Notes: generated by a model not told the origin, from the letters alone. A DNA stretch of 64,000 nt from an uncultured Bdellovibrionales bacterium (GCA_964505555.1 CAZDIO010000026.1:2924-66923); one strand, 5' to 3'; counted from the first letter of the stretch, positions 12,249-58,659 are shown. Numbers and translations are program-made.

Positions 12249-12314
12249 TGTCACCCAAATGTCACCCAAACGACAACACATGGCAAAACATTTGCTTCGT
12301 ATGTTTGGGTGACA
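12249..12314 (+). promoter_or_regulatory. Three copies of the 11-mer TGTCACCCAAA (two direct, one inverted) upstream of integrase B
   Basis: Copies at 12249..12259, 12260..12270 and, inverted (TTTGGGTGACA), at 12304..12314. The inverted copy overlaps the ORF-track GTG start, so the ATG at 12339 is the more likely start. Confidence 0.4.
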
Positions 12315-23189: not shown

Positions 23190-23192
23190 ATC

Positions 23193-27622: not shown

Positions 27623-27624
27623 TT

Positions 27625-28842: not shown

Positions 28843-28845
28843 TCG

Positions 28846-36039: not shown

Positions 36040-39000
36040 ATGAAACAGATGCGAAGAATCAAGAAACCAATCATCAAGCTGGGCAAGATTCGGAAATGGT
36101 CGCAGAGGTCATTGAGAGTCGCAAGCGACTCTCAACAAATGTTTGACCGGTTTTCTCCCCGCTCCCAGAGAGTCGTTATCAAGGTCAAGCAGTCTTACAA
36201 CAAATCTCGCGGCACATGGCCTGCGCACGGACGCTATCTCGAACGGGACAAGAGTCGGTTCGGAGACGGCTTCTCAAAAACCGAGGATCGGGTGCACATC
36301 ACAAAGACTCTCGCCGAGTGGGAAGCCGCAGGAGATGAAAAGCTGCACAAAATTATCATCTCCCCGGAATACGCCGAGAGACTCGATCTCAAAGAACACA
36401 CGCGCGAACTACTGGCGCAAATGGAAAGGGACCTATCCCGGCAAACCGAATGGGTAGCGATTCTCCACAAGAACACCGATAATCACCATGTACATGTCGC
36501 CCTCCGGGGAATTGATACGGCGCACAAATCACTCGAAATTGAGGAATATCTAGGTGACATTCTGCGGACACGAAGTCGTGAACTCGTCACCAAAAAGCTT
36601 GGTCCGAGACTGTATCCCGAGATTCTGGAACGGCGAGAGAAAGAACTTTTTTCAGAGAGGCTCACCGATATTGACAGGGCTTTGCTCTGGAAGGCAGATT
36701 CAAATCTGATCATTCGGTTTCCCGAAAAAGAGTCTTCTAATTGGCGGCAAAATAAGTCCCGTGAACAGGAACGACTCCGGCTTACATTTCTTTCTGAGTT
36801 GGGGCTCTGTGAAAATATCTCACCTAATTCGTGGCGACTCTCTCCCGATCTTGCCGAGACTCTAAAGCGACTCTCTCTCCGACAACAGCTTATAAAAGAG
36901 CAGGTACCTGGCTGGGAATTTGTCCGGACGCTCAAGGCATCCGGCGTCATTCGAAAACGCCTTGACCTGGGAGAGACTCTTACCGGACGGGTTGTGGGAA
37001 CTAATATTCGAGATCCTTTTGGCGATCAGCAATTCATGCTCGTTGAAGGCACGGACGGTGTCACCTATCACTTCAACCAACCAAAAGGTGCCCGAGAGGG
37101 AAAGGTCAAAGTAAATGATGTAGTGACACTTGAAAGGCGCATCGCTGAAATATCAGACAACGACACAGCAGAGGTAACTAAAAGAGAGTTCACAGCGGTT
37201 CAAATCCACAGCGATTGGAAAAAGTGCCTACCCCTTGATTACGAGGCCGTGGCGACTCTCAAGCACACGAACGATTCTCGGGAAGACGCGCCACGAGTCG
37301 GTTTCGCAAACGACTGGGCTCAGGCAGTCCAGGAGAGAGTCGCTGAGCTTCGGGCTAAAAACTTTACACCGCACGATCGGGACTGGAAGACTCGCCTGGA
37401 AGCGATCCGTTTCACAGAAACAGACTCGAAAGCCTGGGAGTGGAATCCGAGAGATTACATCGAGTCAGAAGGCGAGAATGCAGCACCGGATTCCATCTCA
37501 GAGCACGAAGGCAAATTGAACAATGAGAATCGCTTGATTGTCGGAGAAATTCAGTGCGTAGGTGAAGAAAGAATCCTTGTTAAGGATATACGAGATTCAA
37601 CCGGAAGAATTGTCAAACTGAGCGATGCGGGACTTAGCTGGGCACCGAGTGTCGGCACTACGGTTTCAATACAAGCAAAGAGAACCCCTCACACCGAGAT
37701 TCGCCCAAGTGACGACAGAATCGCTGAGCTGATAACTAGCTCTGGAAGTATTCGCGAAGAGAATCTCAAGGACAACGAAAAGAAGTACATACTTGCACGA
37801 GCAAATACTTGGACACGTTGGGAGATTCTCCAGCAAAACAACGACGGGAGTTACCAACTACTCCGCAATCTTGCTGCTCCAAGCAAACAAGCCTTGCTGT
37901 CCTTGATGGAAGAGAAGGTCAGTCAAATACGCTTAAAAGTTAGCGAGGACGTGAAACGCCAACCAGCTTGGCTCAAGTTCCTTGACGAACAAGAATTGTC
38001 CTCAACCGCAAGCGGATTCACATCGATCGATAAACTCCTTAAGGAACTTGGTCGCCTGCCGTCTGACGGGCCTGTAACCTGGCTTACTAAAGCACTTAAA
38101 CGTCGTCAGGCTCTATGGGAGAGTCGCGGTATCGCGCTGGACGATAACTTTGAGAAAAACACAAGAACCTGGATCTCTGAAGGTCTACTTCCGACAACGC
38201 TCGCCAAAGGTGAACAAATCATCGGAAGAATTCTGGACCTTTCGATTAATGGCGGGCGCTACCTCGCACTTGATTCAACGGACGGAACAGTTCGGTATTT
38301 CAAAATTTCCGGCCAGATTCAAGAACAGATCAATAAGGAACAGCTTCCGGTCGGAAACGTTATTGTTCTCACAGGAAAATCATTCGACAAGCAAATAAAC
38401 GGAACTGTCCGCACCATCTACTATACCTCCCTGACGCGGTACATTGACTGGGCATCAAGTGAAGAACTTCTCAAGGATGCACGTGCGGACCAACACAACA
38501 GCATCGCACAGACAACCAAAGGTTTTGCAGAAGAGTGGAAGCGGAAAGTGGCGCAGATTAAGGATAGTCTTCGAGAATTCGATGAACTACCGCTGGTTCA
38601 CACTAAATTGCGTCAAGGAGAAGAACTTACAGGAAGGATAATAGACCTCGGGATAAATGACGGTGAAAAACTCTTGTTAGAGGGCACCGATAGAAAGCTC
38701 CATCTTATTTATCAGTCCAAGAAGATTAAAGAGGCCATTGCCCGATCTGAAATAACCATCGGAGATGTGATCACTCTCAGAGGTAGAGAATTCTCACTCG
38801 GTGAAAGAAAAATACAGTTTATCGACCTGAGCCGTCTTGAGCACTGGGCCGTCTCTTATGCACTTGATAAGTATGCCTTCACTCAAAACCCTGAAGAACT
38901 CTCTCGTTTAAGTACAGTAGCGCCAACTACCTTTACAAGAGAATGGAATCGGCAAGCCGCCAAGCGGAGGCGAGTGCTGGACGCGCGAGGCTATACGCTG

Positions 39001-40191
39001 GACGATGTTGAGCAACTACAGCGAAAGAAAGACGCGTCAAGACATTACAGAAGCGCTCGTGCTCGAACAACGGTCTCCCGAGACGGGATACCGCTTCAAG
39101 AAATTGAAATCGGAAGCCCCCTATCAGGAACCGTTACCGAAATAATCTTTTCCGAGGAAAGTTCTCGACCGGCATACCTTGTAATAAGAAAGCCTGTCGG
39201 GATTCTTGCACACATTCGAGCTGCACGAGGGATTGGTCACATAGTACGAGAAGGACTTGTTCAAAGCGGAGACGAAGTTACGCTTTCTACAAGAGAATTC
39301 AATCGGGACGGAAAACAGCTTTATTACACTGACGTTGAACACCATAATGTCCGAAGCAAAAGTCTCCGCAGCGAGGAGACAATCTTCGGTAGATTACTCA
39401 GCCGTGACCTCCATAAGGACCGATTCGCATTACTCGATAGTCCTGAAGGAAAGATTCACCTGGCCATTTCTCGGACTATAAGAAATCAGATTAAATCCCA
39501 AGATATTCGCGTTGGCGACGTGATTTTCTTTTCTGCAAAGAAAGTGTTCCATCACCGGTTGGAGCGAGGTGCGACAGTCATCTCGCTTACCGCGATTCCA
39601 TTACGTGATTGGAAACGGAGTGAGGAGTTCGACCGGGAAGTAATTCGCTATCTGCAAACGGGCACGCTTAACGAAGTGCTTCCGGCCCGAGAAGGTTTTC
39701 GCGACGAGTGGAACAAGGCGCTTCAGGCGCGCGCGGAAAAACTGCGAGAAGCAGGAATAGGGCTTTCAGATAATTGGGCAGATGAACTCCAACAGCTCCG
39801 TGAGCGAGAGCGTCATGAAGAACAGCAACGTCGCCCTGAACTCGGCAATATCCTGTCTCACGATCTCCGACACATTTCGCGACTTGAATCTCTCTTTACT
39901 CAAGCCACTCAAGCAGGCTGGATTGCACCTACCGAGGCAAATGCGCTGAACTTTGTATCAGCAGCAGTCAGAGCCACCGAGCATCGTCGAGATCCGGTTC
40001 GACATTTTATCGACATCGTGAAGGAAAACAACTGGAAGCAAATTCACCAACAAGACGAGGACAAAGCAAGACGATTGCTTGCAGGCTATCGCAATCGTTT
40101 TGCAAATGCGTTCTTAGTTCCGCTCAACCGAGAGGATGAACTCACCCAAGAACGTAAGAGCGAATCCGAAAGAGGAACAAAAAGCGATTAG
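36040..40191 (+). CDS. VirD2/TraI-type relaxase (DUF3363-type C-terminal region) expanded to 1383 aa by internal tandem modules
   Basis: 'ILHKNTDNHHVHVALRGI' is the HxDxxxHxH relaxase motif III. The gene sits between traF and traG. Five to six repeats follow the pattern 'L(T/S)GR(I/V)xD...xxLxLxGTDGxxhxh...IxxGDVITLxGREF'. Confidence 0.8.
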   Translation: MKQMRRIKKPIIKLGKIRKWSQRSLRVASDSQQMFDRFSPRSQRVVIKVKQSYNKSRGTWPAHGRYLERDKSRFGDGFSKTEDRVHITKTLAEWEAAGDEKLHKIIISPEYAERLDLKEHTRELLAQMERDLSRQTEWVAILHKNTDNHHVHVALRGIDTAHKSLEIEEYLGDILRTRSRELVTKKLGPRLYPEILERREKELFSERLTDIDRALLWKADSNLIIRFPEKESSNWRQNKSREQERLRLTFLSELGLCENISPNSWRLSPDLAETLKRLSLRQQLIKEQVPGWEFVRTLKASGVIRKRLDLGETLTGRVVGTNIRDPFGDQQFMLVEGTDGVTYHFNQPKGAREGKVKVNDVVTLERRIAEISDNDTAEVTKREFTAVQIHSDWKKCLPLDYEAVATLKHTNDSREDAPRVGFANDWAQAVQERVAELRAKNFTPHDRDWKTRLEAIRFTETDSKAWEWNPRDYIESEGENAAPDSISEHEGKLNNENRLIVGEIQCVGEERILVKDIRDSTGRIVKLSDAGLSWAPSVGTTVSIQAKRTPHTEIRPSDDRIAELITSSGSIREENLKDNEKKYILARANTWTRWEILQQNNDGSYQLLRNLAAPSKQALLSLMEEKVSQIRLKVSEDVKRQPAWLKFLDEQELSSTASGFTSIDKLLKELGRLPSDGPVTWLTKALKRRQALWESRGIALDDNFEKNTRTWISEGLLPTTLAKGEQIIGRILDLSINGGRYLALDSTDGTVRYFKISGQIQEQINKEQLPVGNVIVLTGKSFDKQINGTVRTIYYTSLTRYIDWASSEELLKDARADQHNSIAQTTKGFAEEWKRKVAQIKDSLREFDELPLVHTKLRQGEELTGRIIDLGINDGEKLLLEGTDRKLHLIYQSKKIKEAIARSEITIGDVITLRGREFSLGERKIQFIDLSRLEHWAVSYALDKYAFTQNPEELSRLSTVAPTTFTREWNRQAAKRRRVLDARGYTLDDVEQLQRKKDASRHYRSARARTTVSRDGIPLQEIEIGSPLSGTVTEIIFSEESSRPAYLVIRKPVGILAHIRAARGIGHIVREGLVQSGDEVTLSTREFNRDGKQLYYTDVEHHNVRSKSLRSEETIFGRLLSRDLHKDRFALLDSPEGKIHLAISRTIRNQIKSQDIRVGDVIFFSAKKVFHHRLERGATVISLTAIPLRDWKRSEEFDREVIRYLQTGTLNEVLPAREGFRDEWNKALQARAEKLREAGIGLSDNWADELQQLRERERHEEQQRRPELGNILSHDLRHISRLESLFTQATQAGWIAPTEANALNFVSAAVRATEHRRDPVRHFIDIVKENNWKQIHQQDEDKARRLLAGYRNRFANAFLVPLNREDELTQERKSESERGTKSD

Positions 40192-40206
40192 GAGAACGTA
40201 ACAAAA

Positions 40207-42051
40207 ATGGAAAAACAGCATATTCGAGAAATCATTCTGGTCTCAATAGCAGTATTCTCCATTGGAAGTGGCATCTTTATTGCCCACCAACTAGCCGCTC
40301 ATTCCATTAGCTTCCTCTGGATATTCAGCGTTGCAACGACTTTAGTTGCTGGAGCACTTTTTACTGTTCTCCGTCCATACCTCCCGAAGGACACCCAACA
40401 GAAGGGCGACTACGGATCGGCGCATTGGGCCACGGACCGAGAGATAAGAGCGTCAGGATTGTTGAGCATTCGAGGGATCGTCGTCGGAGCGATCAAGCGA
40501 AACGGCAAGCCTCAGCTTCTTCGCTACGACGGCGAGGGTCACGTCATTGTGGTGAGTCCCACCCGAAGTGGCAAAGGTGTTACTGTGGTTGTTCCTACAG
40601 CGCTTACCTGGGAGCACAGCATTCTCTTTAACGACATCAAAGGCGAGCTCTGGGCGCTCACTGCCGGATGGCGAAAGAAACATTTTAATTCAGTGTGTCT
40701 CAGGTTCGACGCAACAAGCAGTGATAGAACCACCGCTCACTGGAATCCGCTTCTTGAGATTCGGCCATATCCAAATGATGTCCGTGACGCTCAAAATATT
40801 GCCCTTACACTTACAACATCCGATTCGTCACTCTCGCGGACGGACAACGAACGCCATTGGCGGATCATGGGGGCGAGACTGATAAAGGCAGCAATACTTC
40901 ACCAGTTGTATGCTGGCAGCGAGAAAACACTTCCCGGGTGCTACCGTCTGCTTACAACCACCAGCCGCGACCTCGAAGATACCTTGCTTGCAATGCTTCG
41001 CGCTTCACACGACCCGGAGCTTCGCTGTAAGTGGGTTGATTCAGACGACAATAAACCCACCGCTACCCACCCCGCAGTTGCGCATATCGCACGGGATATG
41101 TTGAGCAAGTCAGAGAAGGAGCGAAGCTCGATTGTGAGTGCCGCGATAAGTTACCTTGAACCGTTTGACGATCCGATCATGGCTGAAAACGTCTCCGAAA
41201 GCGATTTCTGCTTGTCAGATTTGATGAATCATGAACAGCCGGTGAGTCTGTACCTGACCACCCCAGTTGCCGACCTCGAACGTGTCCAGCCGCTTCATCG
41301 GCTGTTCTTTACACTTGCCGGCACCAGAAACACCGAGCAGCTAAGCTTCCAAGACGGAAGACCGGCGCCCTCTTACAAACATCCCCTGCTTCAAATCTTC
41401 GATGAATGCGCGCATCTCGGTTATTCACCGACAATTCAACAGCATTTCTCACTTGCAAGTGGCTACGGTATCTACGGACTCTTCGTATTTCAGGATTTCT
41501 CTCAACTTTTTGAGCTTTATGGCAAAAACGAATCAATCACCAGTAACTGCGATGTAAAGATAGCCTTTGCCCCAAATAGTCTGGAAACCGCTAATTACCT
41601 GTCGAAGCTCCTTGGCACGGAGACCCGCGAAAAGAAGGCGGGCGTGTTTGATGACCTTTTCAACAAAAGAGGAAGCAAACCAAAGCAGTCCCTTGGAAGG
41701 CTGCTTCTTACCCCGGATGAATGCGCCCGGCTTCCCCGAGATAAGAGCATCATCCTTAGAAACGGTTTCCCGCCAATTTTAGGAGAAAAGATCCCATACT
41801 ATAAAATCCCCGAGCTTCTCCAACGTTCGAAGATTCCGCCGCCGCTGTCTGACAAGCTTACTCTGAAGGAAGCACGTTGGCCCTTGATTTCTGAGCAGTC
41901 AGGGTCTGGAGAGAAGTCGGTCGCAAAAACTTCTGTTGCGCCAGAACAAGAAGCCTCCAAAAAAACGACGCAATCAAAAAGGAAACAAATTCCCAAAAAC
42001 GTAACGCAGCAGATCGAGTTACTCCCCGTAAACAAAAAGGCAAATGAGTGA
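40207..42051 (+). CDS. traG: type IV secretion coupling protein TraG/VirD4
   Basis: Two N-terminal TM helices, 'YGSAHWATDREI', Walker A 'SPTRSGKGVTVVVPT' and Walker B-like 'LLQIFDECAHLG'. Confidence 0.85.
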   Translation: MEKQHIREIILVSIAVFSIGSGIFIAHQLAAHSISFLWIFSVATTLVAGALFTVLRPYLPKDTQQKGDYGSAHWATDREIRASGLLSIRGIVVGAIKRNGKPQLLRYDGEGHVIVVSPTRSGKGVTVVVPTALTWEHSILFNDIKGELWALTAGWRKKHFNSVCLRFDATSSDRTTAHWNPLLEIRPYPNDVRDAQNIALTLTTSDSSLSRTDNERHWRIMGARLIKAAILHQLYAGSEKTLPGCYRLLTTTSRDLEDTLLAMLRASHDPELRCKWVDSDDNKPTATHPAVAHIARDMLSKSEKERSSIVSAAISYLEPFDDPIMAENVSESDFCLSDLMNHEQPVSLYLTTPVADLERVQPLHRLFFTLAGTRNTEQLSFQDGRPAPSYKHPLLQIFDECAHLGYSPTIQQHFSLASGYGIYGLFVFQDFSQLFELYGKNESITSNCDVKIAFAPNSLETANYLSKLLGTETREKKAGVFDDLFNKRGSKPKQSLGRLLLTPDECARLPRDKSIILRNGFPPILGEKIPYYKIPELLQRSKIPPPLSDKLTLKEARWPLISEQSGSGEKSVAKTSVAPEQEASKKTTQSKRKQIPKNVTQQIELLPVNKKANE

Positions 42052-49742: not shown

Positions 49743-52700
49743 TTAGGCGGACGAAAGCGCTTCCCTTACTGCTTCGAGGTTTCGGCAACGGGTTTTCTCA
49801 ATATCAAGAAGATCCACCGGCCCGACATGGAATTTACGAAGCAACTCAGAAACCTGAGCAGCTTCTTTCAATTCTATTTCGTCACGTTTTGCCGACGCCT
49901 TAGCATCACCATCGAAGCGTGCGTTGGTAAACGCAACTAACGCTGGATTGCGCTTCTTTAGATTTGAACTAAAGAGTTTTGCCCGATAATATTCAACTCC
50001 ATCAATTAAATCTCTGATAGCGTCAGATCCAACTTGAATGCCACCTGAATACTTGCACTGCACAAGAATCAGCTCTTTAAGATTGATAGCGATGAGATCA
50101 ACCCCCATGTCCCCGGCCAATGGAGTCAGAACAATGGAATATCCCTGCCTGGCAAAAAGGGTCGCTATAAGCGCCTCGAACTGATGGCCAGAGAATCCTC
50201 TTGTAGAATCGACCGAATTGAATCGAGCAACAGGTGCTGTGCTAATCTTTGTAGGTGGCTCGTCACCGAAGGAATCGATAATCTCTTGTTCAGATACCAC
50301 ACCACGGTTGGAAGGAACCAGAAAATCTCGCGCAACTTTTTTCTTCTCTGAAAGAAGACTGTCTAATTTCTCATCAAATGATTTGAACTGCTTGAGCGGA
50401 TCAACGGATATGGGATAGTAAACGATGACGTCTTTCCGTTGCCCTATTCGATACGCTCGATCTGTTGCCTGTGCTTCCTTTGCAGGGTTCCACCATCGGC
50501 TATAATGAATAACATGATTCGCCGCTGTAATAGTTAAACCAACACCAGCCACCCGAGGAGAAAGAACAATCAAGTTAAAACCCTTTTTGCTGGAAAAATC
50601 CGCAATGGTCTGTTTTCTATTCTCACGTTGAACAAAACGTTCGGAATCAGCAGCCCCATTGATAACATCAATTTTAAGATTGAAATAAGCACCTAAAACT
50701 TCCGCTAGAATCACTTGCATAGCCTGAAAGTCGGCGAAGATAAGAGCTTTCTCTCCGGCCTTCTTAACTTCCTCAATGATAGAGATCACCGACTGAAGTT
50801 TATTCGAGGCTTTAATGTAAACATTAGGGTCATCAATGGGCTTCAAGCCTTCCAGCAAACTAGGATGCATATAGAGTTTTTTTAAAGAGGAAAGAAGACT
50901 CAAGTGATGCGCTTGATCCTTCGACTCTCGGAGATGTTTGATCAACTGAACATGGAATTCTCTTTGCTCAACTGTCAAAGGACTTTCGATACGCTTCTCA
51001 ATTTTGCGGGGCAAGTCAGTAAGCTCTTGCTCCTTTTCTCGTCGAAGAATGAAAGCGTCCTGATGGTCATATCGAAGACACCCACGAAGTTCACTTGTAA
51101 GCGCTCCTCGCTGTTCTTCGGTGAGTTCATCCAAATCCCTCTCATATCGGGTCGAGAAGTCCTTACTTGATCCCAAAAGCGTACCCGGTTGAAAGTAATC
51201 TACTAAGTTCCAAAGATCGAGGAGACGATTTTCGACTGGGGTTCCTGTGGATACTATTTTGAAAACTGCTTTTAATGCCTTTAGCGCATCTGACCTCGCA
51301 TTTTGTTCCTTAAACTCCTGCGCCTCATCTGTTACGATTATCGACCACGGAATACGACCAAACGAATGCTGATAATTCTTGATAGTGTCATAGTTGGTGA
51401 TAATGATCCGATGCTCACGAAGTGCAGCCACATCTAACCTCGGAACACCCAACTGAATCTCACGCCCCTTCTCAGCAGGGATTAGGAATCGCCGAAGCCC
51501 TTTATCATGAAGAACTAAGAGAGGTTCAAATACATCATTCGCAAAGTATCTCTCAGCTTCCTCTTTCCAATTCTCCAGTAATATCAAAGGAGCAACGATT
51601 AAGATCGGCTCCCAGGGGCCCGTAGACGCACCTAGAGCATCGCTGTATCCATCTTCTACGCACCAAGCTAGAAAAGTCAGGATCTGCAGAGTCTTTCCAA
51701 GACCCATATCGTCGGCTAAAAGACAACCACGACGAATATCTCTGTTCCGAAAGAGATTTTGCAGCCAACATATGCCACGTTTTTGATGTTCCTTGAGAAT
51801 CAGAGGCTGTTCGATTCCAATCTGATCCCGAAAGGTTTTCCGTAAAGCACGAGGGAGGACAACTTCTCCCGAGTAGGTAGGCAATGTTTCAACTAGGCCA
51901 CCCTCCTGATATTCGGAAGCCTCTTCATTCGCATAAATTAGAAGATACTTCGACTTTTTTAACGAAGTTGTTGGAGATGCCTTTCCTGAGAATGGCATGA
52001 TAATTCCAGTGACAACTTGCTGAATCTCATCGAGACCGCCAGTTAAGACATCATCGATAAGTATCTTGTGTCCTTTGTAGTCTATGGTTGATTTTCCTTC
52101 CTTGACCGCTTCTTGGACTACGTGGACAAGTTCAACGATTTCCTGCTCTTTGGTCAGAGGGATGATGCGCTCCTCATCGTTCACTTCAATTCTTATCCCA
52201 CAGGAAACGTTAGCGTCACCTAAGCTCGCAGAATCTCCCCAGTCTCGACTTAAACGGCTCAAGAATATTCTTGCCCGTAAAGGAGGATCGCCGATACCTC
52301 GAACTCTTGGGCCAAAGACACTTAGATCCACAACATTTCGATCTGTGCCGTCACTTAGACAGCTCATTACATCAGCGAGTATTCTTTCTTTGGTCTCTCC
52401 ACCAACGTGACGTACTTTTTGAATATCACGAAGGACAGATATTATCTTTTCAGAAAGGACAACCCTCAACCGCCTGTTATTAGGCAAGCTAAGGTCATAA
52501 ACCGGTTGAACTTCACTAAATTGAAGAAAGGCGCGTTCCATTTCACGGTCTGGGACTCCCTCAAATCGTGGAACGAGAGAGAGAAGTCCCGCAGTATCAA
52601 AACTTACGTCTATCTGCACCTTTTGCGGAAGCATTACCTCTTCCGACTGAAGGTAATTGTCTAGCTCAATTCCATTGAGAATAGATTTTATCTCAGCCAA

Positions 52701-53237
52701 TACAACCAGCGCAGCTTCTTTTGTTTTCTCCAGGGCGGTTAGTGAATTAAATCGATCCAGTGACTCAAGTAATTCAAAAGTCTTGGGTGCTAAACGAAAG
52801 TTTGAGCGAGACCGCCGTACAAACGCACCATATCGCTCTACGAAAACCTGTTGCCTGCCTAGAAAGAAACGATAGGCAAATGAAAAATCTTTCGATCCAA
52901 TAAATCCTTCTGCAGACAAGGATATTGAGAATGGTGCCCAAGAAACGAGGTTCTCAAAAAACTCTATGCCTTCCGCTTCAAGTTTAGGTAACGACTGATA
53001 TGGAATAACTATACGCAAGTCTTCCGCTTGAACTAATTCTTGTTCAATAAGTTGCTCGATTAGCTGTCCTAACGCTTTTCCTTTGCTATTAATGCCAGCA
53101 AGACCTTCCCATGTTTCTCGTTTCGATAACGGTTTCGGTGCAGTGCTCTCTCGCCACTCTATCGCAAGGAAAGAACGATGGGCTTTGAGCAATACATCGT
53201 TACTCAGTAATTCAATATCTAAACCAATCTCACTCAT
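49743..53237 (-). CDS. zorD: ZorD-like SNF2-family helicase with C-terminal Mrr-like restriction endonuclease domain
   Basis: SNF2 motifs 'LLADDMGLGKTLQ', 'IIVTDEAQEFK', 'STGTPVENRLLDLWNLVDYFQPG' and 'QATDRAYRIGQ'. The C-terminal 'FEALIATLFARQGYSIVLTPLAGDMGVDLIAIN...LVQCKY' is Mrr_cat-like. About 480 aa at the N-terminus are unassigned. Confidence 0.8.
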   Translation of the reverse strand: MSEIGLDIELLSNDVLLKAHRSFLAIEWRESTAPKPLSKRETWEGLAGINSKGKALGQLIEQLIEQELVQAEDLRIVIPYQSLPKLEAEGIEFFENLVSWAPFSISLSAEGFIGSKDFSFAYRFFLGRQQVFVERYGAFVRRSRSNFRLAPKTFELLESLDRFNSLTALEKTKEAALVVLAEIKSILNGIELDNYLQSEEVMLPQKVQIDVSFDTAGLLSLVPRFEGVPDREMERAFLQFSEVQPVYDLSLPNNRRLRVVLSEKIISVLRDIQKVRHVGGETKERILADVMSCLSDGTDRNVVDLSVFGPRVRGIGDPPLRARIFLSRLSRDWGDSASLGDANVSCGIRIEVNDEERIIPLTKEQEIVELVHVVQEAVKEGKSTIDYKGHKILIDDVLTGGLDEIQQVVTGIIMPFSGKASPTTSLKKSKYLLIYANEEASEYQEGGLVETLPTYSGEVVLPRALRKTFRDQIGIEQPLILKEHQKRGICWLQNLFRNRDIRRGCLLADDMGLGKTLQILTFLAWCVEDGYSDALGASTGPWEPILIVAPLILLENWKEEAERYFANDVFEPLLVLHDKGLRRFLIPAEKGREIQLGVPRLDVAALREHRIIITNYDTIKNYQHSFGRIPWSIIVTDEAQEFKEQNARSDALKALKAVFKIVSTGTPVENRLLDLWNLVDYFQPGTLLGSSKDFSTRYERDLDELTEEQRGALTSELRGCLRYDHQDAFILRREKEQELTDLPRKIEKRIESPLTVEQREFHVQLIKHLRESKDQAHHLSLLSSLKKLYMHPSLLEGLKPIDDPNVYIKASNKLQSVISIIEEVKKAGEKALIFADFQAMQVILAEVLGAYFNLKIDVINGAADSERFVQRENRKQTIADFSSKKGFNLIVLSPRVAGVGLTITAANHVIHYSRWWNPAKEAQATDRAYRIGQRKDVIVYYPISVDPLKQFKSFDEKLDSLLSEKKKVARDFLVPSNRGVVSEQEIIDSFGDEPPTKISTAPVARFNSVDSTRGFSGHQFEALIATLFARQGYSIVLTPLAGDMGVDLIAINLKELILVQCKYSGGIQVGSDAIRDLIDGVEYYRAKLFSSNLKKRNPALVAFTNARFDGDAKASAKRDEIELKEAAQVSELLRKFHVGPVDLLDIEKTRCRNLEAVREALSSA

Positions 53238-54575
53238 TTATGCTCTCCTGATACCGTTTCTTGAGAGAATTGTACGAGTGTTACTTTTCCAGTCCCGGAC
53301 TGAACGAGTTATACGCTCCAACGCTTTTTCGGCGTTCTTCAAGGTATGAATACTCTCTCCTGCTTTCCAAAAGTTCTGCACGATTGAATCAAACTCACGC
53401 CGTCGATACATGTAACAGGCGTTTCCAATTTGATTAAACTCCACAACCACCAGTTCACCAAAATCAAGGATAAAACAACATGTATCATTATTGTCTTGGA
53501 GCTCACCATATGAACGTCCTCGTTCTTCAAGGTCCTTCAGTTTTACAGCGTGTTTCTTTCTATCGGAGGGACACAGTAACGCTCGAGATCGTTTCACAAC
53601 TGGCACATATTCAAGCCAAAACGATTTTCGATTATGCCGATCTTCTCGATCTTTAATCAAAAGCTCAAAAAAGAAATTGATATCTTCACGAGAGAGCCAT
53701 TGTATGAATCGTTGCGTTGCCTCGTCTCTGACACCTGTCCATGGATTAATACGAGGGTCTCCGAAGCCCTCCTTCTTCATGCAAAAGTCAATAATCAAAC
53801 CTTGCAGTGCTTCGTTCCTATTTACTTCGGGATCGAGAATCAGGCTTGCAAGTGTCTCTTTGAGCGTCTCCTGCTCGATGAGAGGACTCGAAAGAACTGA
53901 AAAAAGAAAGACATTCCGTTGTGGGTCGTTGAGCTTTCCAAAATCAGAAGTATAGGATTCAACACAATGTCGAGCCGCTAACCGCAAAAAAGGACTTTCT
54001 TCGAGAATTCCGATCTCTTTTGCGAATGACTCAATACTTTTCGATGATCCTCGGATATGGACTCCGAGTCTCGAAGGAGCTTGTTGACCTAGTAAAGCAT
54101 CGAGGTAGCCAAGCCATTTTCTTATTCTCGGATCGCTCTTCTCAAAATGAGAAAGACGATTAAAAAGAAATGTCTCAAGTTCTCGATTAAGACATAATTG
54201 AGTAAAGTTTGCATGATACGAGTTGAGAAGGGCTTTTATTGCCTGACCTCCAACGTAAAACGAACCGTCCAAAATATTTCCAATGAATCTTTCATGACCA
54301 ACAACTTCAGAAATCCAGCAAAGACATCTTATTTCGCGTGGAGCAAACGACACTTGATTGCCACTGATATATTCTGACCAACGCTCGTGCGCTTTGTCAG
54401 TCAACGATGGAGGTAAATTATCTGAGACAACTGCATCCAGAGATTGCACTGCTTCATCGAGAACTCGATTTTTAAAAACATCTGTTACAAATGGCAAGTG
54501 ATCATCCCCGTCTCGCAGCATGGTAATACTTTGAAGACGTTCAATGGCTCTATGGATATGGAGAGATAACATCAT
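53238..54575 (-). CDS. zorC: ZorC-like protein (EH-signature-domain position)
   Basis: 445 aa, abutting zorD (stop and start adjacent). It occupies the ZorC slot between a MotB-like and an SNF2 gene. The C-terminal 'FWLEYVP...CCFILDFGELVVVEFNQIGNACYMY' is reminiscent of the EH_Signature domain. This is assigned by context and not verified. Confidence 0.55.
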   Translation of the reverse strand: MMLSLHIHRAIERLQSITMLRDGDDHLPFVTDVFKNRVLDEAVQSLDAVVSDNLPPSLTDKAHERWSEYISGNQVSFAPREIRCLCWISEVVGHERFIGNILDGSFYVGGQAIKALLNSYHANFTQLCLNRELETFLFNRLSHFEKSDPRIRKWLGYLDALLGQQAPSRLGVHIRGSSKSIESFAKEIGILEESPFLRLAARHCVESYTSDFGKLNDPQRNVFLFSVLSSPLIEQETLKETLASLILDPEVNRNEALQGLIIDFCMKKEGFGDPRINPWTGVRDEATQRFIQWLSREDINFFFELLIKDREDRHNRKSFWLEYVPVVKRSRALLCPSDRKKHAVKLKDLEERGRSYGELQDNNDTCCFILDFGELVVVEFNQIGNACYMYRRREFDSIVQNFWKAGESIHTLKNAEKALERITRSVRDWKSNTRTILSRNGIRRA

Positions 54576-54587
54576 CCCTATATTCCT

Positions 54588-55268
54588 TCAGTCGAGCTCA
54601 ACGGATTGAACGGCATCTTGAATTTTCTTTTCTTCAAGGCTCTTTACTCGGATCTTAAATTCAACCTTTCGGCACCTTTCTTTTTCAGGTTCAAGTGAAG
54701 TTAATTCTGCTTTACATTCGCGCTCCCCGCGACCACTGGCTGAAGACAAATCAAGAAAACAACTATGATTATTTCCGGCGTTCCGAAGCATCGACTTCAT
54801 TACGACTAACGACCGATCTTGACTCAGTCTAAGATTAAAATATGGGTCATTCGGGTTCTGGTCTGGGTCAGTATGCCCTTCTATCACAATGGAGCTAAGT
54901 GCATCCTTAAGCTCATCACTGCACACGATAGACAATAGTTTAGGAGTTAATTCTCCAAGAAACTGTTCTCCAATTTCTTTAAGAATCGCTCGACTTTTGT
55001 CGAACTGAATCCATTTTTCCGGCACGATGACTATTAATGTGTACGGATCTTTTGCATCTTCGATGACGCTGACGCCTTCAAATGCATCACCCTGAAAAAC
55101 ATTCTTGAGTGCTTCTTCGATCGTTTGCTTAACAGTTTTACGATTTGATTCAGCAGCGTGTTGATCGTTACGGATGTAATTAACCAAGAGCAGGACGAAG
55201 ATGACCATCAAGCTTGTCATCATGTCTGTGAGAGAACTATTAAATGCAGAATGGCTAGTGTCACTCAT
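54588..55268 (-). CDS. zorB: ZorB-like MotB/OmpA-family stator subunit
   Basis: The N-terminal TM 'LTDMMTSLMVIFVLLLV' carries the conserved MotB-type Asp. The OmpA-like C-domain is 'VIEGHTDPD...NLRLSQDRSLVV'. It overlaps the zorA stop by 1 nt. Confidence 0.75.
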   Translation of the reverse strand: MSDTSHSAFNSSLTDMMTSLMVIFVLLLVNYIRNDQHAAESNRKTVKQTIEEALKNVFQGDAFEGVSVIEDAKDPYTLIVIVPEKWIQFDKSRAILKEIGEQFLGELTPKLLSIVCSDELKDALSSIVIEGHTDPDQNPNDPYFNLRLSQDRSLVVMKSMLRNAGNNHSCFLDLSSASGRGERECKAELTSLEPEKERCRKVEFKIRVKSLEEKKIQDAVQSVELD

Positions 55269-57190
55269 TAGTTAATACTTTTTGCTTTGGATGACGCCTC
55301 CATAAGATCGTCCAAACTGTCGTTCAACTGCTGCACTGTACCGCCGAGCTTTGAGGTAGCATTTCCGAGAAAGTTATCGAATTGCGCAAGATTGCTCTCC
55401 AATCCGGATTTAACCTTTGAAGTATAATTTTCGAGACTTGTCGCAATCTGACTCAAGAGCGCACCTATCGACTTATCCAATTCCGCGAAGGTTCTCTGAT
55501 ATTGTGTTAAGAGATCACTTTGTTGTGTAATAACAGCAGCGAGTTGTTGAAAATTTGACCGGGCAAGGTCCGCTACAGTGTTGGTGTTATCTTGGAGCTT
55601 ATTGGCCTGTTCTACAGTTGTATTGAGGGTCTGTATGCCCGAGTGTAACGAGTTAGCTCCGTCGTCCATTTTCGTGAGCGTTGAACTCCCTCGTTGAACA
55701 GCGTCTTGAAAGAGCGTCAAGGCTTCGTTGAGAGAATTTTTAGCGCTCTCTATAACTGAAGCGTTCCGGGCTTGCTGCTCCAACAACTCTGCTAGTCTTG
55801 CGGTAGTCTGTGCTGAATGCGTTGAAGTAGTTTCAACAACGTTAGAAACCGTCGATTTGAGAGAGTCCGCAGAGAGATTGATGGACTGTTGTGCCTGCTC
55901 CATCAGCCCTCTGACCAAGGTCGATAATTCTATGGAACGTTTGCTATTCTCTTCAAGTTGCACTCGCGATGACTGCTCTAGGCGCTCTAAAACATTAGTC
56001 ACTGCCTGAGTAAATGATTCGGAAGACGAAGAGGTTGTTTCACGCAACTTTGCGAGAGTGCCTTCCATGACGTTAGCAAGCCGAGACAGATTTTCGCTTC
56101 CAGCTTCAGAATTCTTTGTCATTAATGTTTCGATGTTCTTAATGAGACCATCAAGTGCTTCTTGAGATCGCTCTCCTTGACGATTCATAGATTCAAGCGT
56201 GCTTGTTGTGGAGGATAGTGTCGATGCTAGCGCTTTAAATTCTGAATCCGTCGAGCCCATCAATGTGTTTTTGAATTCTCCGATTATTTTCCCAATCGTG
56301 TCGGTAACAGATTCACTCTTCTGTTTTGTCAGCTCTTCTAAAGCGGTAGCGATTCGAGCAACCAGAGGATCCATTCCTTCCCTGAAGCTTTCTTTCAGAC
56401 GCCCTGAGAGATCGGTGCCAAATTGTTGGAACAAAACTGCTTGCTGTCCAATGTCTCGACGAATGTCGCGAAGCAAATGTTCCGCTGGCATTCGAGCGAA
56501 CCGTCTATCGATTGCACCGATAAAAGCGCGGTAACTTCGATTTAGTGTTTTGGTTATTCTTTTCTCAATCCCGGTAAAAACTGTGGCAAGAATTAAAGCA
56601 GCAATAGAAGAAATGAATTTACCTGATAGACTATAGACAAGTTCCTTTATGCCGGTGATTTCACCATTAACCTCCTTAATATGAGAAAGTCCCATTAATA
56701 TTGCTATGAACGTAAGAAGCAGTCCAAGACTTGTTAGAATCCCTGGAAAAGCAACGTAAAAAGCAGTGCTCACCCTTGCTTCAATGAGTCCTGCTTCATC
56801 AAAATACTCAGAGGCTTGATGTGTGTTAAAAACTTTTGTGTTCTGATCGGCATCAGTCTCGAACAGCAGAGTTTCCTCGAACTCGCTCCACTGCTCTGAA
56901 AGCACGTTATCCTTCGTCAATAATTCTCGAATCTGTTCGATGCCAGTTCCATCCAGCGGCTTATTTCGTGGCGGGATATTCTCGATTTCCCGTCGGAGTT
57001 TCCTGAATTTGACTATCAGGGGACGAGATTCAAAGAAGAACTTAAGGGCGATGCCTATGGTAACGATTGCCAAAACGGCACAAGCAATCCATAAGAATAG
57101 TGGCGCGGTGATTTCGTTTACGTGACATGGCGGATCAAAAAAATTGATTGGAGAATCTTGAATCGCCAAGAGACAGTCTTTTGCTTCCAT
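55268..57190 (-). CDS. zorA: ZorA-like MotA/ExbB-family channel protein with a long coiled-coil tail
   Basis: TM helices at the N-terminus and at 'AFPGILTSLGLLLTFIAILMGL' / 'FISSIAALILATVFTGI'. About 400 aa of heptad-like, S/T/Q/L-rich helical tail follow. Confidence 0.7.
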   Translation of the reverse strand: MEAKDCLLAIQDSPINFFDPPCHVNEITAPLFLWIACAVLAIVTIGIALKFFFESRPLIVKFRKLRREIENIPPRNKPLDGTGIEQIRELLTKDNVLSEQWSEFEETLLFETDADQNTKVFNTHQASEYFDEAGLIEARVSTAFYVAFPGILTSLGLLLTFIAILMGLSHIKEVNGEITGIKELVYSLSGKFISSIAALILATVFTGIEKRITKTLNRSYRAFIGAIDRRFARMPAEHLLRDIRRDIGQQAVLFQQFGTDLSGRLKESFREGMDPLVARIATALEELTKQKSESVTDTIGKIIGEFKNTLMGSTDSEFKALASTLSSTTSTLESMNRQGERSQEALDGLIKNIETLMTKNSEAGSENLSRLANVMEGTLAKLRETTSSSSESFTQAVTNVLERLEQSSRVQLEENSKRSIELSTLVRGLMEQAQQSINLSADSLKSTVSNVVETTSTHSAQTTARLAELLEQQARNASVIESAKNSLNEALTLFQDAVQRGSSTLTKMDDGANSLHSGIQTLNTTVEQANKLQDNTNTVADLARSNFQQLAAVITQQSDLLTQYQRTFAELDKSIGALLSQIATSLENYTSKVKSGLESNLAQFDNFLGNATSKLGGTVQQLNDSLDDLMEASSKAKSIN

Positions 57191-57195
57191 CGTTA

Positions 57196-57519
57196 TTATT
57201 TCCCACTCCTGCCCACAGATTTTTCAAGATTCTGCAGTGCTTCTAAAAATTCCCTAAAATGTTTCTTTTCAAACGAAAAATAGGTTCGAACGCCCTGTGT
57301 TTCTGCTTTAAGTAATCCAACATCTACTAGTTTCTTCAGGTGCCGTGAAACAGTTGCTTGACTAAGAGGCAACTTTTCCACTAACTCAGTACCTATCAAA
57401 GTCGCATGCCGTGCAAGCAATCTAAGAATCGCAACTCGTGCCGGATGACCGAGAGCGTTACACCACAGCGAGAGCTTTTGATCCTCGTTGGAAAAGTTCT
57501 GTGCCTTACGCGCAACCAT
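57196..57519 (-). CDS. ArsR/SmtB-family winged-HTH regulator, first gene of the Zorya operon
   Basis: 'LGHPARVAILRLL...ELVEKLPLSQATVSRHLKKLVDVGLL'. A 5-nt gap separates it from zorA. Confidence 0.75.
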   Translation of the reverse strand: MVARKAQNFSNEDQKLSLWCNALGHPARVAILRLLARHATLIGTELVEKLPLSQATVSRHLKKLVDVGLLKAETQGVRTYFSFEKKHFREFLEALQNLEKSVGRSGK

Positions 57520-57612
57520 ATCGCTATATCCTACTTTGACGATTAAGCATTAAACCTTAAATGCTCGCGCAAATAAAGTGCTAATTCGTCCTTTTCTCCT
57601 AATAATACTAAA

Positions 57613-57891
57613 ATGTTAGCTTATTTTCTCCAGATCCGGATCTGGAAAATGATCCACATACGGATCGTATTTGACCGCACCTTAGCTTGCATGAAACTAC
57701 GCAAGCGACTAGCAAAGCGATTGAAGCAATTGAAAGGAGACTCGAAACAAGCTGAGTTCGCCAGGAGGATCGGAATAGGTCAGGCTTCTTTGAATCGCAT
57801 TCTCCAAGCCGAGCAAAGCGTAAGTTTGGACCTTTTAGAGACCATCTGTAATAGTCTTCGGATTGATGTCACGGAGCTGCTTCGCGAATAG
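57613..57891 (+). CDS. XRE-family HTH regulator
   Basis: 'KQAEFARRIGIGQASLNRILQAEQSVSLDLLETICNSL'. The likely start is the ATG at 57691. It is divergent from the ArsR-zor operon. Confidence 0.65.
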   Translation: MLAYFLQIRIWKMIHIRIVFDRTLACMKLRKRLAKRLKQLKGDSKQAEFARRIGIGQASLNRILQAEQSVSLDLLETICNSLRIDVTELLRE

Positions 57892-58625: not shown

Positions 58626-58659
58626 ACAAACTACCATCCAACTTACCGTGCGCGAATAA

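What the first reader, a model, noticed from the sequence alone, without database searches (positions are those of the whole stretch)
49743..57519. ArsR-fronted type I Zorya-like operon (zorA-zorB-zorC-zorD) carried as ICE cargo
Five co-directional, tightly packed genes: ArsR (5-nt gap), zorA (1-nt overlap), zorB (12-nt gap), zorC, then zorD abutting. They encode a MotA/ExbB-like channel with a ~400-aa coiled-coil tail, a MotB/OmpA-like subunit with the TM Asp, a 445-aa ZorC-slot protein, and an 1164-aa SNF2 helicase ending in an Mrr-like nuclease domain. This is the type I Zorya architecture. Three features are notable: a winged-HTH ArsR-type gene as the first cistron, a ZorC that looks shorter than I recall for model ZorC proteins, and a ~480-aa unassigned N-terminal region on ZorD. 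The operon's location on a conjugative element makes it horizontally mobile immunity.
Basis: partly seen in the sequence, partly recalled or inferred. Interest (0 to 1): 0.7.

Follow-up and report, generated by a model that had tools for sequence, protein, structure and literature searches.

The report
Zorya phage-defence operon with ArsR leader
This is a genuine but divergent four-gene type I Zorya anti-phage system carried on a mobile element; its one unusual feature is a leading regulator gene descended from arsenic-sensing repressors that has lost its sensing cysteines.

Summary
Five tightly packed minus-strand genes lie at 49743-57519 with exactly the stated spacings. They encode an ArsR-family wHTH protein, ZorA, ZorB, ZorC and ZorD. 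All four Zor proteins match PADLOC type I Zorya models and the solved E. coli Zorya structures.

The 445-aa ZorC and the ZorD N-terminal ~470 aa are typical of a large clade; the N-terminal region aligned in 65/65 relatives and corresponds to the known ZorD N-terminal domain.

The ArsR gene is unusual. No ArsR homologue lies near zorA in about 160 related loci. Its nearest relatives sit beside arsenic-type genes and keep four cysteines that this protein has replaced. Eight of 65 non-redundant related Zorya operons carry a different small DNA-binding gene (HTH_17 or ribbon-helix-helix) in the same leading position, which suggests an interchangeable regulator slot.

ZorC also carries Arg at the signature His. 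It shares this with four of the 70 ZorC compared, all from Bdellovibrionota genomes.

'ICE cargo' is only partly supported. An integrase, a tRNA-Leu att repeat, a relaxase and a coupling protein are present. No mating-pore genes are in the window, and the element's right end lies outside it.

Overall this is a new member of a known kind, of modest interest.

The parts
57196..57519 (-). ArsR/SmtB-family winged-HTH gene (107 aa) and first cistron. It has a single Cys (C20). The four Cys positions conserved in its nearest homologues are Leu, Gly, Tyr and Ser here.
   Evidence: NF033788 69.3 bits > cutoff 55; alignment A3.
55268..57190 (-). zorA (640 aa). It has three hydrophobic segments (about 24-55, 140-172 and 184-208) followed by a long helical tail of about 425 aa.
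   Evidence: PADLOC ZorA1 2.7e-37; PDB 8vvn 2.2e-16 and 8qyd 1.8e-14; hydropathy.
54588..55268 (-). zorB (226 aa). It has one N-terminal TM helix carrying Asp15, equivalent to EcZorB Asp26, and a weak OmpA-like peptidoglycan-binding domain.
   Evidence: PADLOC ZorB1 1.6e-31; PDB 8qyd_F 2-214 aligned to 13-222; Pfam OmpA 1e-4, below the gathering score.
53238..54575 (-). zorC (445 aa), consisting of the EH-signature core only. E379 is conserved, the signature His is Arg424, and there is no linker or C-terminal globular domain.
   Evidence: Pfam EH_Signature 2.4e-31; PDB 8r68 1.6e-6; alignments.
49743..53237 (-). zorD (1164 aa). It has the ZorD N-terminal domain (~1-470), an SNF2 ATPase (GLGKT 512-516, DEAQ 637-640) and a C-terminal Mrr-type nuclease module (D1047; QxK 1060-1062).
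   Evidence: PADLOC ZorD1 2.5e-218 covering 52-1138; Pfam; PDB 8qy7 2.9e-94.
57520..57690 (.). Divergent control region between arsR and an XRE-type gene. It contains an 18-nt perfect palindrome TCCAGATCCGGATCTGGA (57629-57646; 24 nt with one mismatch), a related half-site copy at 57653-57666, and a weaker 9-2-9 inverted repeat at 57546-57565, 27 nt upstream of the arsR ATG.
   Evidence: The strong palindrome is rare in shuffles and the arsR-proximal one is not. No sigma-70 consensus hit on the minus strand here.
57691..57891 (+). Divergently transcribed XRE-type HTH gene. It heads a cluster of three uncharacterised genes (58068-62140).
   Evidence: PADLOC HTH_VI 1.6e-7; translation from the ATG at 57691.
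12064..12119 (-). Left att site of the carrier element. It is a 56-nt copy of the 3' part of a tRNA-Leu(CAG) gene, identical to 4937-4992, which bounds a smaller neighbouring element.
   Evidence: ARAGORN finds no complete tRNA.
12309..13574 (+). Tyrosine integrase (P4 type) of the carrier element.
   Evidence: Pfam Arm-DNA-bind_3, Phage_int_M and Phage_integrase.
36040..42051 (+). Transfer genes of the carrier element: a relaxase (36040-40191; DUF3363 plus MobA/VirD2) and a TraG/VirD4-type coupling protein (40207-42051).
   Evidence: tblastn gives 35-42% identity to plasmid TraG.

Best explanation
The locus is an intact but divergent type I Zorya anti-phage system, zorA-zorB-zorC-zorD. It is transcribed as one operon behind a small ArsR-family repressor gene and carried as low-GC cargo on a tRNA-Leu-integrated mobile element.

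The defence mechanism is inferred by homology to the E. coli system (PMC11946911). ZorA5B2 would form an inner-membrane, proton-driven, peptidoglycan-anchored motor, with ZorB Asp15 as the ion-coupling residue. Envelope perturbation during phage DNA entry would activate it. The long ZorA tail would pass the signal to ZorC and ZorD, which would be recruited and degrade the incoming DNA. Here ZorD carries an Mrr-type nuclease module in addition to its SNF2 ATPase.

The ArsR-like protein descends from arsenite-type repressors but has lost all four conserved cysteines. Most likely it acts as a metal-blind dimeric autorepressor that binds a palindrome in the 57520-57690 control region. This would hold operon expression at a low, copy-number-buffered level, for example after the element transfers to a new host. 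What relieves the repression is unknown.

What is shown: gene content, order, spacing, domain and residue conservation, rarity of the ArsR pairing, and loss of the cysteines. What is inferred: co-transcription, repression, the operator, and anti-phage activity.
For: - **Zorya identity.** All four Zor proteins hit PADLOC type I models and solved Zorya chains: 8qyd, 8vvn, 8vvi, 8r68 and 8qy7.
- **Synteny.** ZorA-B-C-D with near-identical protein lengths recurs in every close relative examined.
- **Key residues.** Present are ZorB D15, ZorC E379/R316/W320/W429, ZorD GLGKT and DEAQ, and the Mrr D...QxK motif.
- **Operon structure.** The gap between the arsR stop and the zorA ATG is only 5 nt. arsR base composition (GC 0.438, GC3 0.38) matches the zor genes and not the transfer backbone at 0.49-0.58.
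- **Origin of ArsR.** Its nearest homologues are at most 52% identical. The two whose contexts were looked up sit beside an ACR3-type arsenite carrier or a methyltransferase. All 14 homologues aligned keep CxC plus two further Cys, which are L/G/Y/S in this protein.
- **Leading regulator position.** 8 of 65 non-redundant type I relatives have a different small DNA-binding gene (HTH_17 or RHH_1) between 8 nt of overlap and 22 nt upstream of zorA. This supports a regulatory role for the leading position.
- **Candidate operators.** Palindromes are present in the control region.
- **Precedent.** Dedicated repressors upstream of immune operons are an established theme, for example BrxR/CapW and CapK+CapS (PMC9122601, PMC13373217).
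Against: - There is no experimental or comparative evidence that this ArsR binds this promoter. No orthologous ArsR-Zorya pair exists to show co-evolution: 0 hits in about 160 loci by phmmer and by a family HMM.
- The arsR-proximal inverted repeat is not statistically unusual. No sigma-70 consensus promoter was found on the minus strand upstream of arsR, although the host phylum is unknown.
- All NCBIfam Zorya models score below their curated cutoffs.
- ZorC has Arg at the position where H443A inactivates EcZorC. It also lacks the C-terminal globular domain that is essential in EcZorC. Function therefore cannot simply be transferred from the E. coli model.
Confidence: 0.6

Rival explanations
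1. The ArsR gene is a passenger. It would be a decayed remnant of a metal or arsenic resistance cassette, on an element rich in metal-efflux genes, that happens to sit in front of Zorya. It may be co-transcribed but would exert no meaningful control, and Zorya would be constitutively expressed as in E. coli.
For: The element carries a heavy-metal P-type ATPase and two RND/Czc-Cus-type efflux systems. The two closest ArsR homologues whose contexts were looked up sit beside an arsenite carrier or a methyltransferase. The sensor cysteines are lost, which could reflect decay. 57 of 65 related Zorya operons have no recognised leading regulator.
Against: The ORF is intact, and its DNA-recognition region is well conserved (HPARVAILRLL ... 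LSQATVS.HL). Its base composition matches the zor genes rather than the rest of the element. The 5-nt spacing is typical of a coupled operon. No arsenic-resistance gene (ACR3/ArsB/ArsC type) was seen among the ORFs scanned, including those either side of it.
Confidence: 0.22
2. The ArsR-like protein and the divergent XRE protein form a two-regulator switch. This switch would govern both arms of a small defence island, Zorya on one side and the uncharacterised 185/849/333-aa cluster on the other, rather than ArsR simply autoregulating Zorya.
For: The arrangement is divergent with a shared 171-nt control region. That region holds a strong 18-24-nt palindrome plus a related second site. The XRE protein resembles defence-associated HTH and C-protein models. 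The neighbouring 849 plus 333-aa pair recurs as a module, once beside Patatin, Mrr and HNH genes.
Against: No comparative support: neither regulator is conserved with either module elsewhere. A defence function for the neighbouring cluster is pure conjecture.
Confidence: 0.12
3. The Zorya system is present but non-functional or altered in function. ZorC lacks both the signature His and the C-terminal DNA-binding domain that are required in the E. coli system.
For: H443A and deletion of the C-terminal domain each abolish EcZorI defence. The window ZorC has R424 at that position and ends right after the core.
Against: The short ZorC form is found in essentially all of the roughly 100 relatives surveyed, alongside intact partner genes. 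The His-to-Arg change is shared by four other intact operons from different Bdellovibrionota genomes whose ZorA proteins are about 44-47% identical to the window's, which argues for conservation under selection. All other key residues are intact.
Confidence: 0.05
4. The locus is a flagellar-stator or Tol/Exb paralogue rather than a defence system.
For: ZorA and ZorB belong to the MotAB/ExbBD/TolQR superfamily. NCBIfam gives weak MotB, LafU and MotD hits for ZorB.
Against: The best hits are Zorya-specific for both proteins. ZorA has the ~425-aa tail. The EH-signature and SNF2/Mrr partner genes are fused into the same operon. No TonB, TolA/R or flagellar genes are nearby.
Confidence: 0.01

Closest known systems
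[quoted passage not shown]
   Same: It has the same four genes in the same order. ZorA has a 3-TM motor domain plus a long tail. The ZorB ion-coupling Asp is present (D15 for D26). The ZorC EH core keeps Glu, Arg and both Trp. ZorD has an N-terminal domain plus an SNF2 ATPase with a DEAQ box.
   Different: Sequence similarity is low, and NCBIfam equivalog scores are far below their cutoffs. The ZorA tail is about 90 aa shorter (640 vs 729 aa). ZorC is 115 aa shorter, lacks the essential C-terminal globular domain and has Arg in place of His443. ZorD has an extra C-terminal Mrr_cat nuclease module that EcZorD lacks. There is an ArsR-family gene as first cistron, whereas EcZorI was cloned with just its own native promoter.
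Short-ZorC / Mrr-bearing-ZorD type I Zorya of Bdellovibrionota, Acidobacteriota and other environmental phyla (loci L006-L174; PADLOC models PDLC00598, 00609, 00613/00622, 00631)
   Same: Protein lengths match: ZorA 625-650, ZorB 213-233, ZorC 436-466 and ZorD 1125-1196 aa. The ZorD Mrr module is present in 63/65. The closest ZorA is 50% identical. The ZorC His-to-Arg change is shared with four Bdellovibrionota loci.
   Different: None of these loci has an ArsR-family gene within 6-10 kb. Where a leading gene exists, it is HTH_17 (2 loci) or ribbon-helix-helix (6 loci).
As(III)-responsive ArsR repressors (ArsR/SmtB family; NCBIfam NF033788)
   Same: It has the same winged-HTH fold and size, at 37-52% identity to ArsR proteins; the two whose contexts were looked up sit beside an ACR3-type carrier or a methyltransferase. 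It is the first gene of the operon it presumably controls.
   Different: All conserved sensor cysteines are replaced, both the CxC in helix 3 and the two in 'RVCYC'. The downstream genes encode a phage-defence system, not a resistance pump.
Immune-operon-associated repressors (BrxR/CapW WYL proteins, CapH+CapP, CapK+CapS; PMC9122601, PMC13373217)
   Same: It is a small DNA-binding protein encoded immediately upstream of a defence operon and presumed to repress it. BrxR homologues have been reported next to some Zorya systems.
   Different: It has an unrelated architecture: no WYL, STAS or protease/kinase partner and no recognisable ligand-sensing domain. No inducing signal can be proposed from the sequence.

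Membership tests
Type I Zorya (ZorABCD) | ZorA: a MotA/ExbB-like membrane motor subunit with a long cytoplasmic helical tail | tested here: met
   PADLOC ZorA1 2.7e-37 over residues 30-631. PDB ZorA chains 8vvn and 8qyd at 1e-14 to 1e-16. Three hydrophobic segments followed by a ~425-aa tail. Generic Pfam MotA_ExbB did not hit.
Type I Zorya (ZorABCD) | ZorB: a single TM helix with the conserved ion-coupling Asp, plus a periplasmic OmpA-like peptidoglycan-binding domain | tested here: met
   PADLOC ZorB1 1.6e-31. Residues 2-214 align to EcZorB 13-222, which places D15 at D26. The Pfam OmpA hit is only 1e-4, below the gathering score.
Type I Zorya (ZorABCD) | ZorC: the EH-signature domain with the Glu and His of the signature | tested here: inconclusive
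   The domain is present (Pfam 109.9 bits against a 27.5 cutoff). Glu is conserved (E379). The His position is Arg424 here and in 4 other sequences of 70, and His in 63/70.
Type I Zorya (ZorABCD) | ZorD: an SNF2-family ATPase with a DEAQ box preceded by the ZorD N-terminal domain, with an Mrr-like nuclease module in many members | tested here: met
   PADLOC ZorD1 2.5e-218. EcZorD 8qy7 2.9e-94. GLGKT 512-516, DEAQ 637-640 and Mrr_cat 1014-1132. The N-terminal domain aligned in 65/65 relatives.
Type I Zorya (ZorABCD) | The four genes are adjacent, co-directional and in the order A-B-C-D | tested here: met
   coordinates. The same order is seen in all relatives.
Type I Zorya (ZorABCD) | Scores above NCBIfam's curated cutoffs for its Zorya models (ZorA subfamily models; ZorA1/ZorB1/ZorC/ZorD equivalogs) | tested here: not met
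   ZorA_1 119.7 against 190; ZorB1 45.5 against 400; ZorC 42.8 against 490; ZorD 401 against 1500. This is a divergent member, not an equivalog of the enterobacterial system.
Type I Zorya (ZorABCD) | Confers protection against phage infection | not testable with these tools
   Requires cloning and plaque assays.
ArsR/SmtB metalloregulators | Winged helix-turn-helix of the HTH_5/HTH_20 type | tested here: met
   Pfam HTH_20 9.6e-12 and HTH_5 4.5e-11. NF033788 69.3 bits against a cutoff of 55.
ArsR/SmtB metalloregulators | A metal or metalloid-binding site, such as the CxC in helix alpha-3 of As(III)-responsive ArsR | tested here: not met
   In alignment A3, the CxC and two further Cys present in all 14 nearest homologues are Leu, Gly, Tyr and Ser here. 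The only Cys is C20.
ArsR/SmtB metalloregulators | Binds an inverted-repeat operator at its own promoter (autorepression) | tested here: inconclusive
   Inverted repeats exist upstream. The arsR-proximal one is within chance expectation, and binding cannot be tested here.
Integrative and conjugative element (ICE) | Site-specific integrase with flanking att repeats | tested here: inconclusive
   An integrase lies at 12309-13574 next to a 56-nt tRNA-Leu 3' fragment at 12064-12119. The right-hand att site is not in the window.
Integrative and conjugative element (ICE) | Relaxase and type IV coupling protein | tested here: met
   The relaxase at 36040-40191 and the T4CP at 40207-42051. TraG-like at 35-42% identity.
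Integrative and conjugative element (ICE) | Its own mating-pore T4SS (VirB4-class ATPase and partners) | tested here: not met
   Every ORF of 400 aa or more in the window was scanned against Pfam, and none is VirB4/TrbE-like. Only a TraF-like S26 peptidase was seen. The genes could lie beyond position 64000.

The most novel reading that the evidence does not exclude
Type I Zorya operons would have a previously undescribed, interchangeable 'leader regulator' slot. Unrelated small DNA-binding proteins (ribbon-helix-helix, HTH_17 and, here, ArsR) have been recruited to it independently. The window's version would be an arsenite repressor exapted into a cysteine-free, metal-blind autoregulator that sets Zorya dosage on a mobile element. 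A more speculative extension is that these leader proteins act in defence itself, for example by supplying in trans the DNA-binding function lost with the ZorC C-terminal domain.
Probability: 0.4. Interest if true: 0.4.

Novelty: new member of a known kind. Interest (0 to 1): 0.3.

Why it matters
Zorya is one of the commonest recently discovered phage-defence systems. Its mechanism is known almost entirely from the E. coli model, and how its expression is controlled is essentially unstudied.

This locus belongs to a large environmental clade that differs from the model in three ways that matter mechanistically. ZorC has no C-terminal domain. ZorD carries an Mrr nuclease module. In a sub-clade, the EH-signature His is Arg.

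The locus and eight relatives also show that some Zorya operons begin with a small DNA-binding gene. If these are autoregulators, they offer a simple handle on how a potentially self-damaging nuclease system is kept in check, particularly when it arrives in a new host on a mobile element. The cysteine-free ArsR is also a clean small example of a metal sensor repurposed as a regulator of something else.

None of this overturns current understanding.

Tried and rejected
- **DNA-level matches.** Megablast of the Zorya region and of the transfer region against PLSDB plasmids gave no match.
- **Orthologous ArsR-Zorya pairs.** The ArsR protein search found nothing above 52% identity. The closest hits examined lie beside an arsenite carrier or a methyltransferase. 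phmmer and a family HMM found no ArsR in about 160 Zorya loci.
- **Short ZorC compensated by the ZorD Mrr module.** Rejected. Long-ZorC systems in Nitrosospira and Polaromonas plasmids also have Mrr on ZorD, and only the enterobacterial ZorD lacks it.
- **More leading regulators.** Other small upstream ORFs in relatives gave no Pfam hit, or only an HsdM_N hit.
- **Promoter and terminator scan.** It gave nothing useful. Hit counts were at shuffle level and there was no minus-strand hit upstream of arsR.
- **Rfam and tRNA scans.** Both were empty.
- **Recovering the rest of the contig.** A gene near the right end returned only short unrelated contigs, so the right boundary and the presence of a T4SS stay open.
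- **AlphaFold2 model of the neighbouring 333-aa protein.** It was unusable (mean pLDDT 37), so no fold search was run.
- **The arsR-proximal 9-2-9 inverted repeat.** It is not rarer than chance, so I do not claim it as the operator.

Full report
**1. Observation**

The gaps are 5 nt, a 1-nt overlap, 12 nt and 0 nt.

Pfam, PADLOC and NCBIfam scans identify them as follows:
- An ArsR/SmtB-family winged-HTH protein: HTH_20 9.6e-12, and NF033788 at 69.3 bits against a cutoff of 55.
- ZorA: PADLOC ZorA1 2.7e-37.
- ZorB: ZorB1 1.6e-31.
- ZorC: Pfam EH_Signature 2.4e-31, above the gathering score.
- ZorD: ZorD1 2.5e-218, with SNF2 at 484-793, Helicase_C at 813-932 and Mrr_cat at 1014-1132.

Generic MotA_ExbB (PF01618) does not hit ZorA. 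Pfam OmpA and MotB_plug hit ZorB only below their gathering scores. All NCBIfam Zorya models also score well below their curated cutoffs. The system is therefore a divergent relative of the enterobacterial one, not an equivalog.

**2. Is it really Zorya?**

Each protein finds the corresponding solved Zorya chain by sequence alone:
- ZorD matches EcZorD 8qy7 at 2.9e-94, plus a weak match across the N-terminal domain.
- ZorC matches EcZorC 8r68 at 1.6e-6.
- ZorA matches 8vvn and 8qyd at about 1e-15.
- ZorB matches 8vvi and 8qyd_F.

The mechanistically essential residues described for EcZorI (PMC11946911) are present:
- ZorB Asp15 aligns with Asp26.
- ZorC keeps Glu379 (E400), Arg316, Trp320 and Trp429.
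- ZorD has GLGKT and DEAQ.
- The Mrr module has its D...QxK motif.

ZorA has three hydrophobic segments followed by a tail of about 425 residues. The closest ZorA in 5.8 billion proteins is only 50% identical. Even so, every relative whose context I examined has the same A-B-C-D order and near-identical protein sizes. No TonB, Tol or flagellar genes are nearby. The stator/Tol-Exb alternative is excluded.

**3. The three 'notable' features**

(a) The ZorD N-terminal ~480 aa is not an unassigned region. The PADLOC ZorD model covers residues 52-1138. The first 470 residues align to all 65 full-length ZorD relatives at 1e-33 to 1e-119. EcZorD has the same N-terminal domain (Met1-Asn502), which autoinhibits the C-terminal nuclease/ATPase.

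(b) ZorC really is 115 aa shorter than EcZorC (560 aa). Alignment shows it ends directly after the EH core. It lacks the linker and C-terminal globular domain present in the E. coli/Klebsiella, Nitrosospira and Polaromonas proteins. That domain is required for DNA binding and defence in EcZorC. However, the short form is the rule in this clade at 436-466 aa, and it matches short PADLOC ZorC models end to end. It is therefore a known subfamily that has not been studied mechanistically.

I tested whether the ZorD Mrr module compensates for the missing ZorC domain. It does not correlate. Long-ZorC systems from Nitrosospira and Polaromonas also have Mrr on ZorD. 63/65 surveyed ZorDs have it, and the enterobacterial ZorD is the exception.

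(c) The ArsR leader is the one truly unusual element; see section 4.

The His of the EH signature (EcZorC H443, where H443A abolishes defence) is Arg424 here. Among 70 non-redundant ZorC sequences it is His in 63 and Arg in 5. The five are the window and four Bdellovibrionota genomes with otherwise intact operons. Sharing across diverged genomes argues for a tolerated, conserved variant rather than decay.

**4. The ArsR-like gene**

Its best homologue is 52% identical. The remaining hits are 36-48% identical ArsR proteins, and the named ones are mostly from Bacteroidota.

The two closest whose contexts I examined sit next to an ACR3-type arsenite carrier and next to a methyltransferase. Both are arsenic-resistance-type settings.

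In an alignment of the 14 nearest homologues, all carry the CxC motif in the helix preceding the recognition helix, plus two more cysteines in 'RVCYC'. The window protein has Leu, Gly, Tyr and Ser at these four positions, and its only cysteine is C20. The DNA-reading part (HPARVAILRLL...LSQATVS.HL) is fully conserved. It is therefore an ArsR-fold DNA-binding protein that has lost the thiolate sensing site.

Its base composition (GC 0.44, GC3 0.38) matches the zor genes (0.42-0.45) and not the element's transfer backbone (0.49-0.58). The 5-nt spacing to zorA leaves no room for an intergenic promoter.

I surveyed 80 genome loci and 80 metagenome loci related to this ZorA. Neither phmmer nor a family HMM found any ArsR homologue within 6-10 kb of zorA.

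The same leading position is nevertheless occupied in 8 of 65 non-redundant type I loci by other small DNA-binding genes:
- A 73-79-aa HTH_17 protein in two loci, one of them a Bdellovibrionales genome. It lies 3 nt upstream of zorA in one and overlaps it by 8 nt in the other (Pfam 1e-19).
- A ~70-aa ribbon-helix-helix family in six Acidobacteriota-type loci, lying between a 4-nt overlap and 22 nt upstream.

Three unrelated folds in the same slot is the best available evidence that the position is regulatory.

The library holds no description of a dedicated ArsR-type regulator for Zorya. Known immune-operon regulators are BrxR/CapW, CapH+CapP, CapK+CapS and RptR, and an ArsR-family protein (NolR) modulates Hna in trans.

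**5. Control region**

Between the arsR ATG (57519) and a divergent XRE-type gene lie 171 nt. The XRE gene's real start is most likely the ATG at 57691.

This region holds an 18-nt perfect palindrome, TCCAGATCCGGATCTGGA (57629-57646; 24 nt with one mismatch). A related copy of its half-site lies 24 nt away. A weaker 9-2-9 inverted repeat lies 27 nt upstream of the arsR ATG.

In 2000 shuffles, a best palindrome score of 7 or more occurs in 10% and a score of 10 or more in 0.15%. The strong palindrome scores 9. The arsR-proximal repeat scores about 6 by the same scheme (my tally; the script did not list it) and is unremarkable. I therefore cannot assign an operator to either regulator. The sigma-70 consensus scan found nothing on the minus strand here.

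**6. Carrier element**

A 56-nt perfect direct repeat lies at 4937-4992 and 12064-12119. It is the anticodon-arm-to-3'-end portion of a tRNA-Leu(CAG) gene on the minus strand. Neither copy is a complete tRNA.

Each copy is followed by a P4-type integrase (5190-6449 and 12309-13574). Two integrative elements therefore sit in tandem:
- A ~7-kb element carrying an AbiE toxin-antitoxin pair.
- A second element of at least 52 kb that runs off the window.

The second element carries:
- a PIN toxin;
- a heavy-metal P-type ATPase and two RND efflux systems;
- RadC, ArdC and a TraF-like peptidase;
- a DUF3363-type relaxase and a TraG-like coupling protein;
- ParB and a sigma-54 activator;
- the low-GC block that contains Zorya.

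No VirB4-class or other mating-pore gene is among the ORFs of the window. All ORFs of 400 aa or more were scanned. The element is certainly integrative and at least mobilizable. Whether it is self-transmissible cannot be decided from this window.

**7. Mechanism, with its basis**

By homology to EcZorI, I infer the following. ZorA5B2 is a proton-driven, peptidoglycan-tethered motor that senses envelope perturbation at phage entry. The ZorA tail relays this signal. ZorC and ZorD are recruited, and ZorD degrades the incoming DNA.

Specific to this clade, the nuclease chemistry is probably supplied or reinforced by the C-terminal Mrr module. ZorC must bind DNA, or do its job, without the C-terminal domain.

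The ArsR-like protein most likely acts as a metal-blind autorepressor of the arsR-zorABCD transcript. This would give negative feedback on dosage. The inducing signal, if any, is unknown.

Confidence is about 0.95 that this is a type I Zorya. It is about 0.6 for the whole package including ArsR autoregulation.

**8. Verdict**

This is a correct and careful first-stage call on the core. Two of the highlighted oddities are normal for the clade, and the ICE label is over-stated.

The locus is a new, divergent member of a known kind. Its modest points of interest are the cysteine-free ArsR leader, the recurrent leader-regulator slot in Zorya operons, the Arg-for-His signature variant, and the short ZorC.

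Noticed in passing
window 58068-62140 (+), with the XRE gene at 57691-57891: Three genes follow the divergent XRE regulator, of 185 aa, 849 aa (with N-terminal TM helices) and 333 aa. None has a Pfam, PADLOC or NCBIfam hit. The 849-aa protein has only three homologues in 5.8 billion proteins. In the two homologue contexts examined (L180, L181) it is again followed by a homologue of the 333-aa protein, once beside Patatin, Mrr_cat, HNH and transposase genes. This is a candidate uncharacterised two-gene module in a defence-island-like setting.
   Followed up: partly
window 53238-54575 (ZorC residue 424); loci L010, L012, L015, L018: The His of the ZorC EH signature is essential in E. coli ZorC as H443. 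It is Arg in the window protein and in four Bdellovibrionota Zorya operons, and His in 63 of the 70 ZorC sequences compared.
   Followed up: yes
L006:7776-7997, L012:5769-6008; L020, L022, L025, L028, L038, L101, L103-L105, L111 upstream of zorA: Small DNA-binding genes sit immediately upstream of zorA in related type I Zorya operons. They are HTH_17 in two lineages and a ribbon-helix-helix family in Acidobacteriota-type loci, together 8 of 65 non-redundant loci.
   Followed up: yes
window 4937-4992 and 12064-12119; integrases at 5190-6449 and 12309-13574: A perfect 56-nt direct repeat corresponds to the 3' part of a tRNA-Leu(CAG) gene, and each copy sits next to a P4-type integrase. Two integrative elements are inserted in tandem at the same site. 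The complete tRNA gene is not in the window.
   Followed up: partly
window 6573-7999: An AbiEii nucleotidyltransferase toxin (7157-7999) is preceded by a 194-aa gene that is likely its AbiEi partner. They lie on the small ~7-kb element and form a second defence/TA module in the window.
   Followed up: no
window 8690-8786 and 33224-33320: A 97-nt direct repeat at 86% identity links the small element to the RadC gene region of the large element. This suggests the two tandem elements are related or have exchanged sequence.
   Followed up: no
window 44230-45669 (-), internal repeats at 44756-45478: A 479-aa protein has many zinc-ribbon and FYVE-like repeats, and its gene contains three copies of a ~108-nt repeat. 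It lies between the coupling protein and ParB, and its function is unknown.
   Followed up: no
L050:4019-6208: In a Schekmanbacteria genome, the ZorC homologue is fused to a C-terminal FGE-sulfatase domain (729 aa), and the neighbouring ZorD homologue is 1664 aa. This is an unusual Zorya domain architecture.
   Followed up: no
window 14936-32097: The same element carries a dense heavy-metal resistance cargo: an HMBD P-type ATPase and two complete OEP-MFP-RND efflux operons in opposite orientation. It is therefore a combined metal-resistance and phage-defence island.
   Followed up: no
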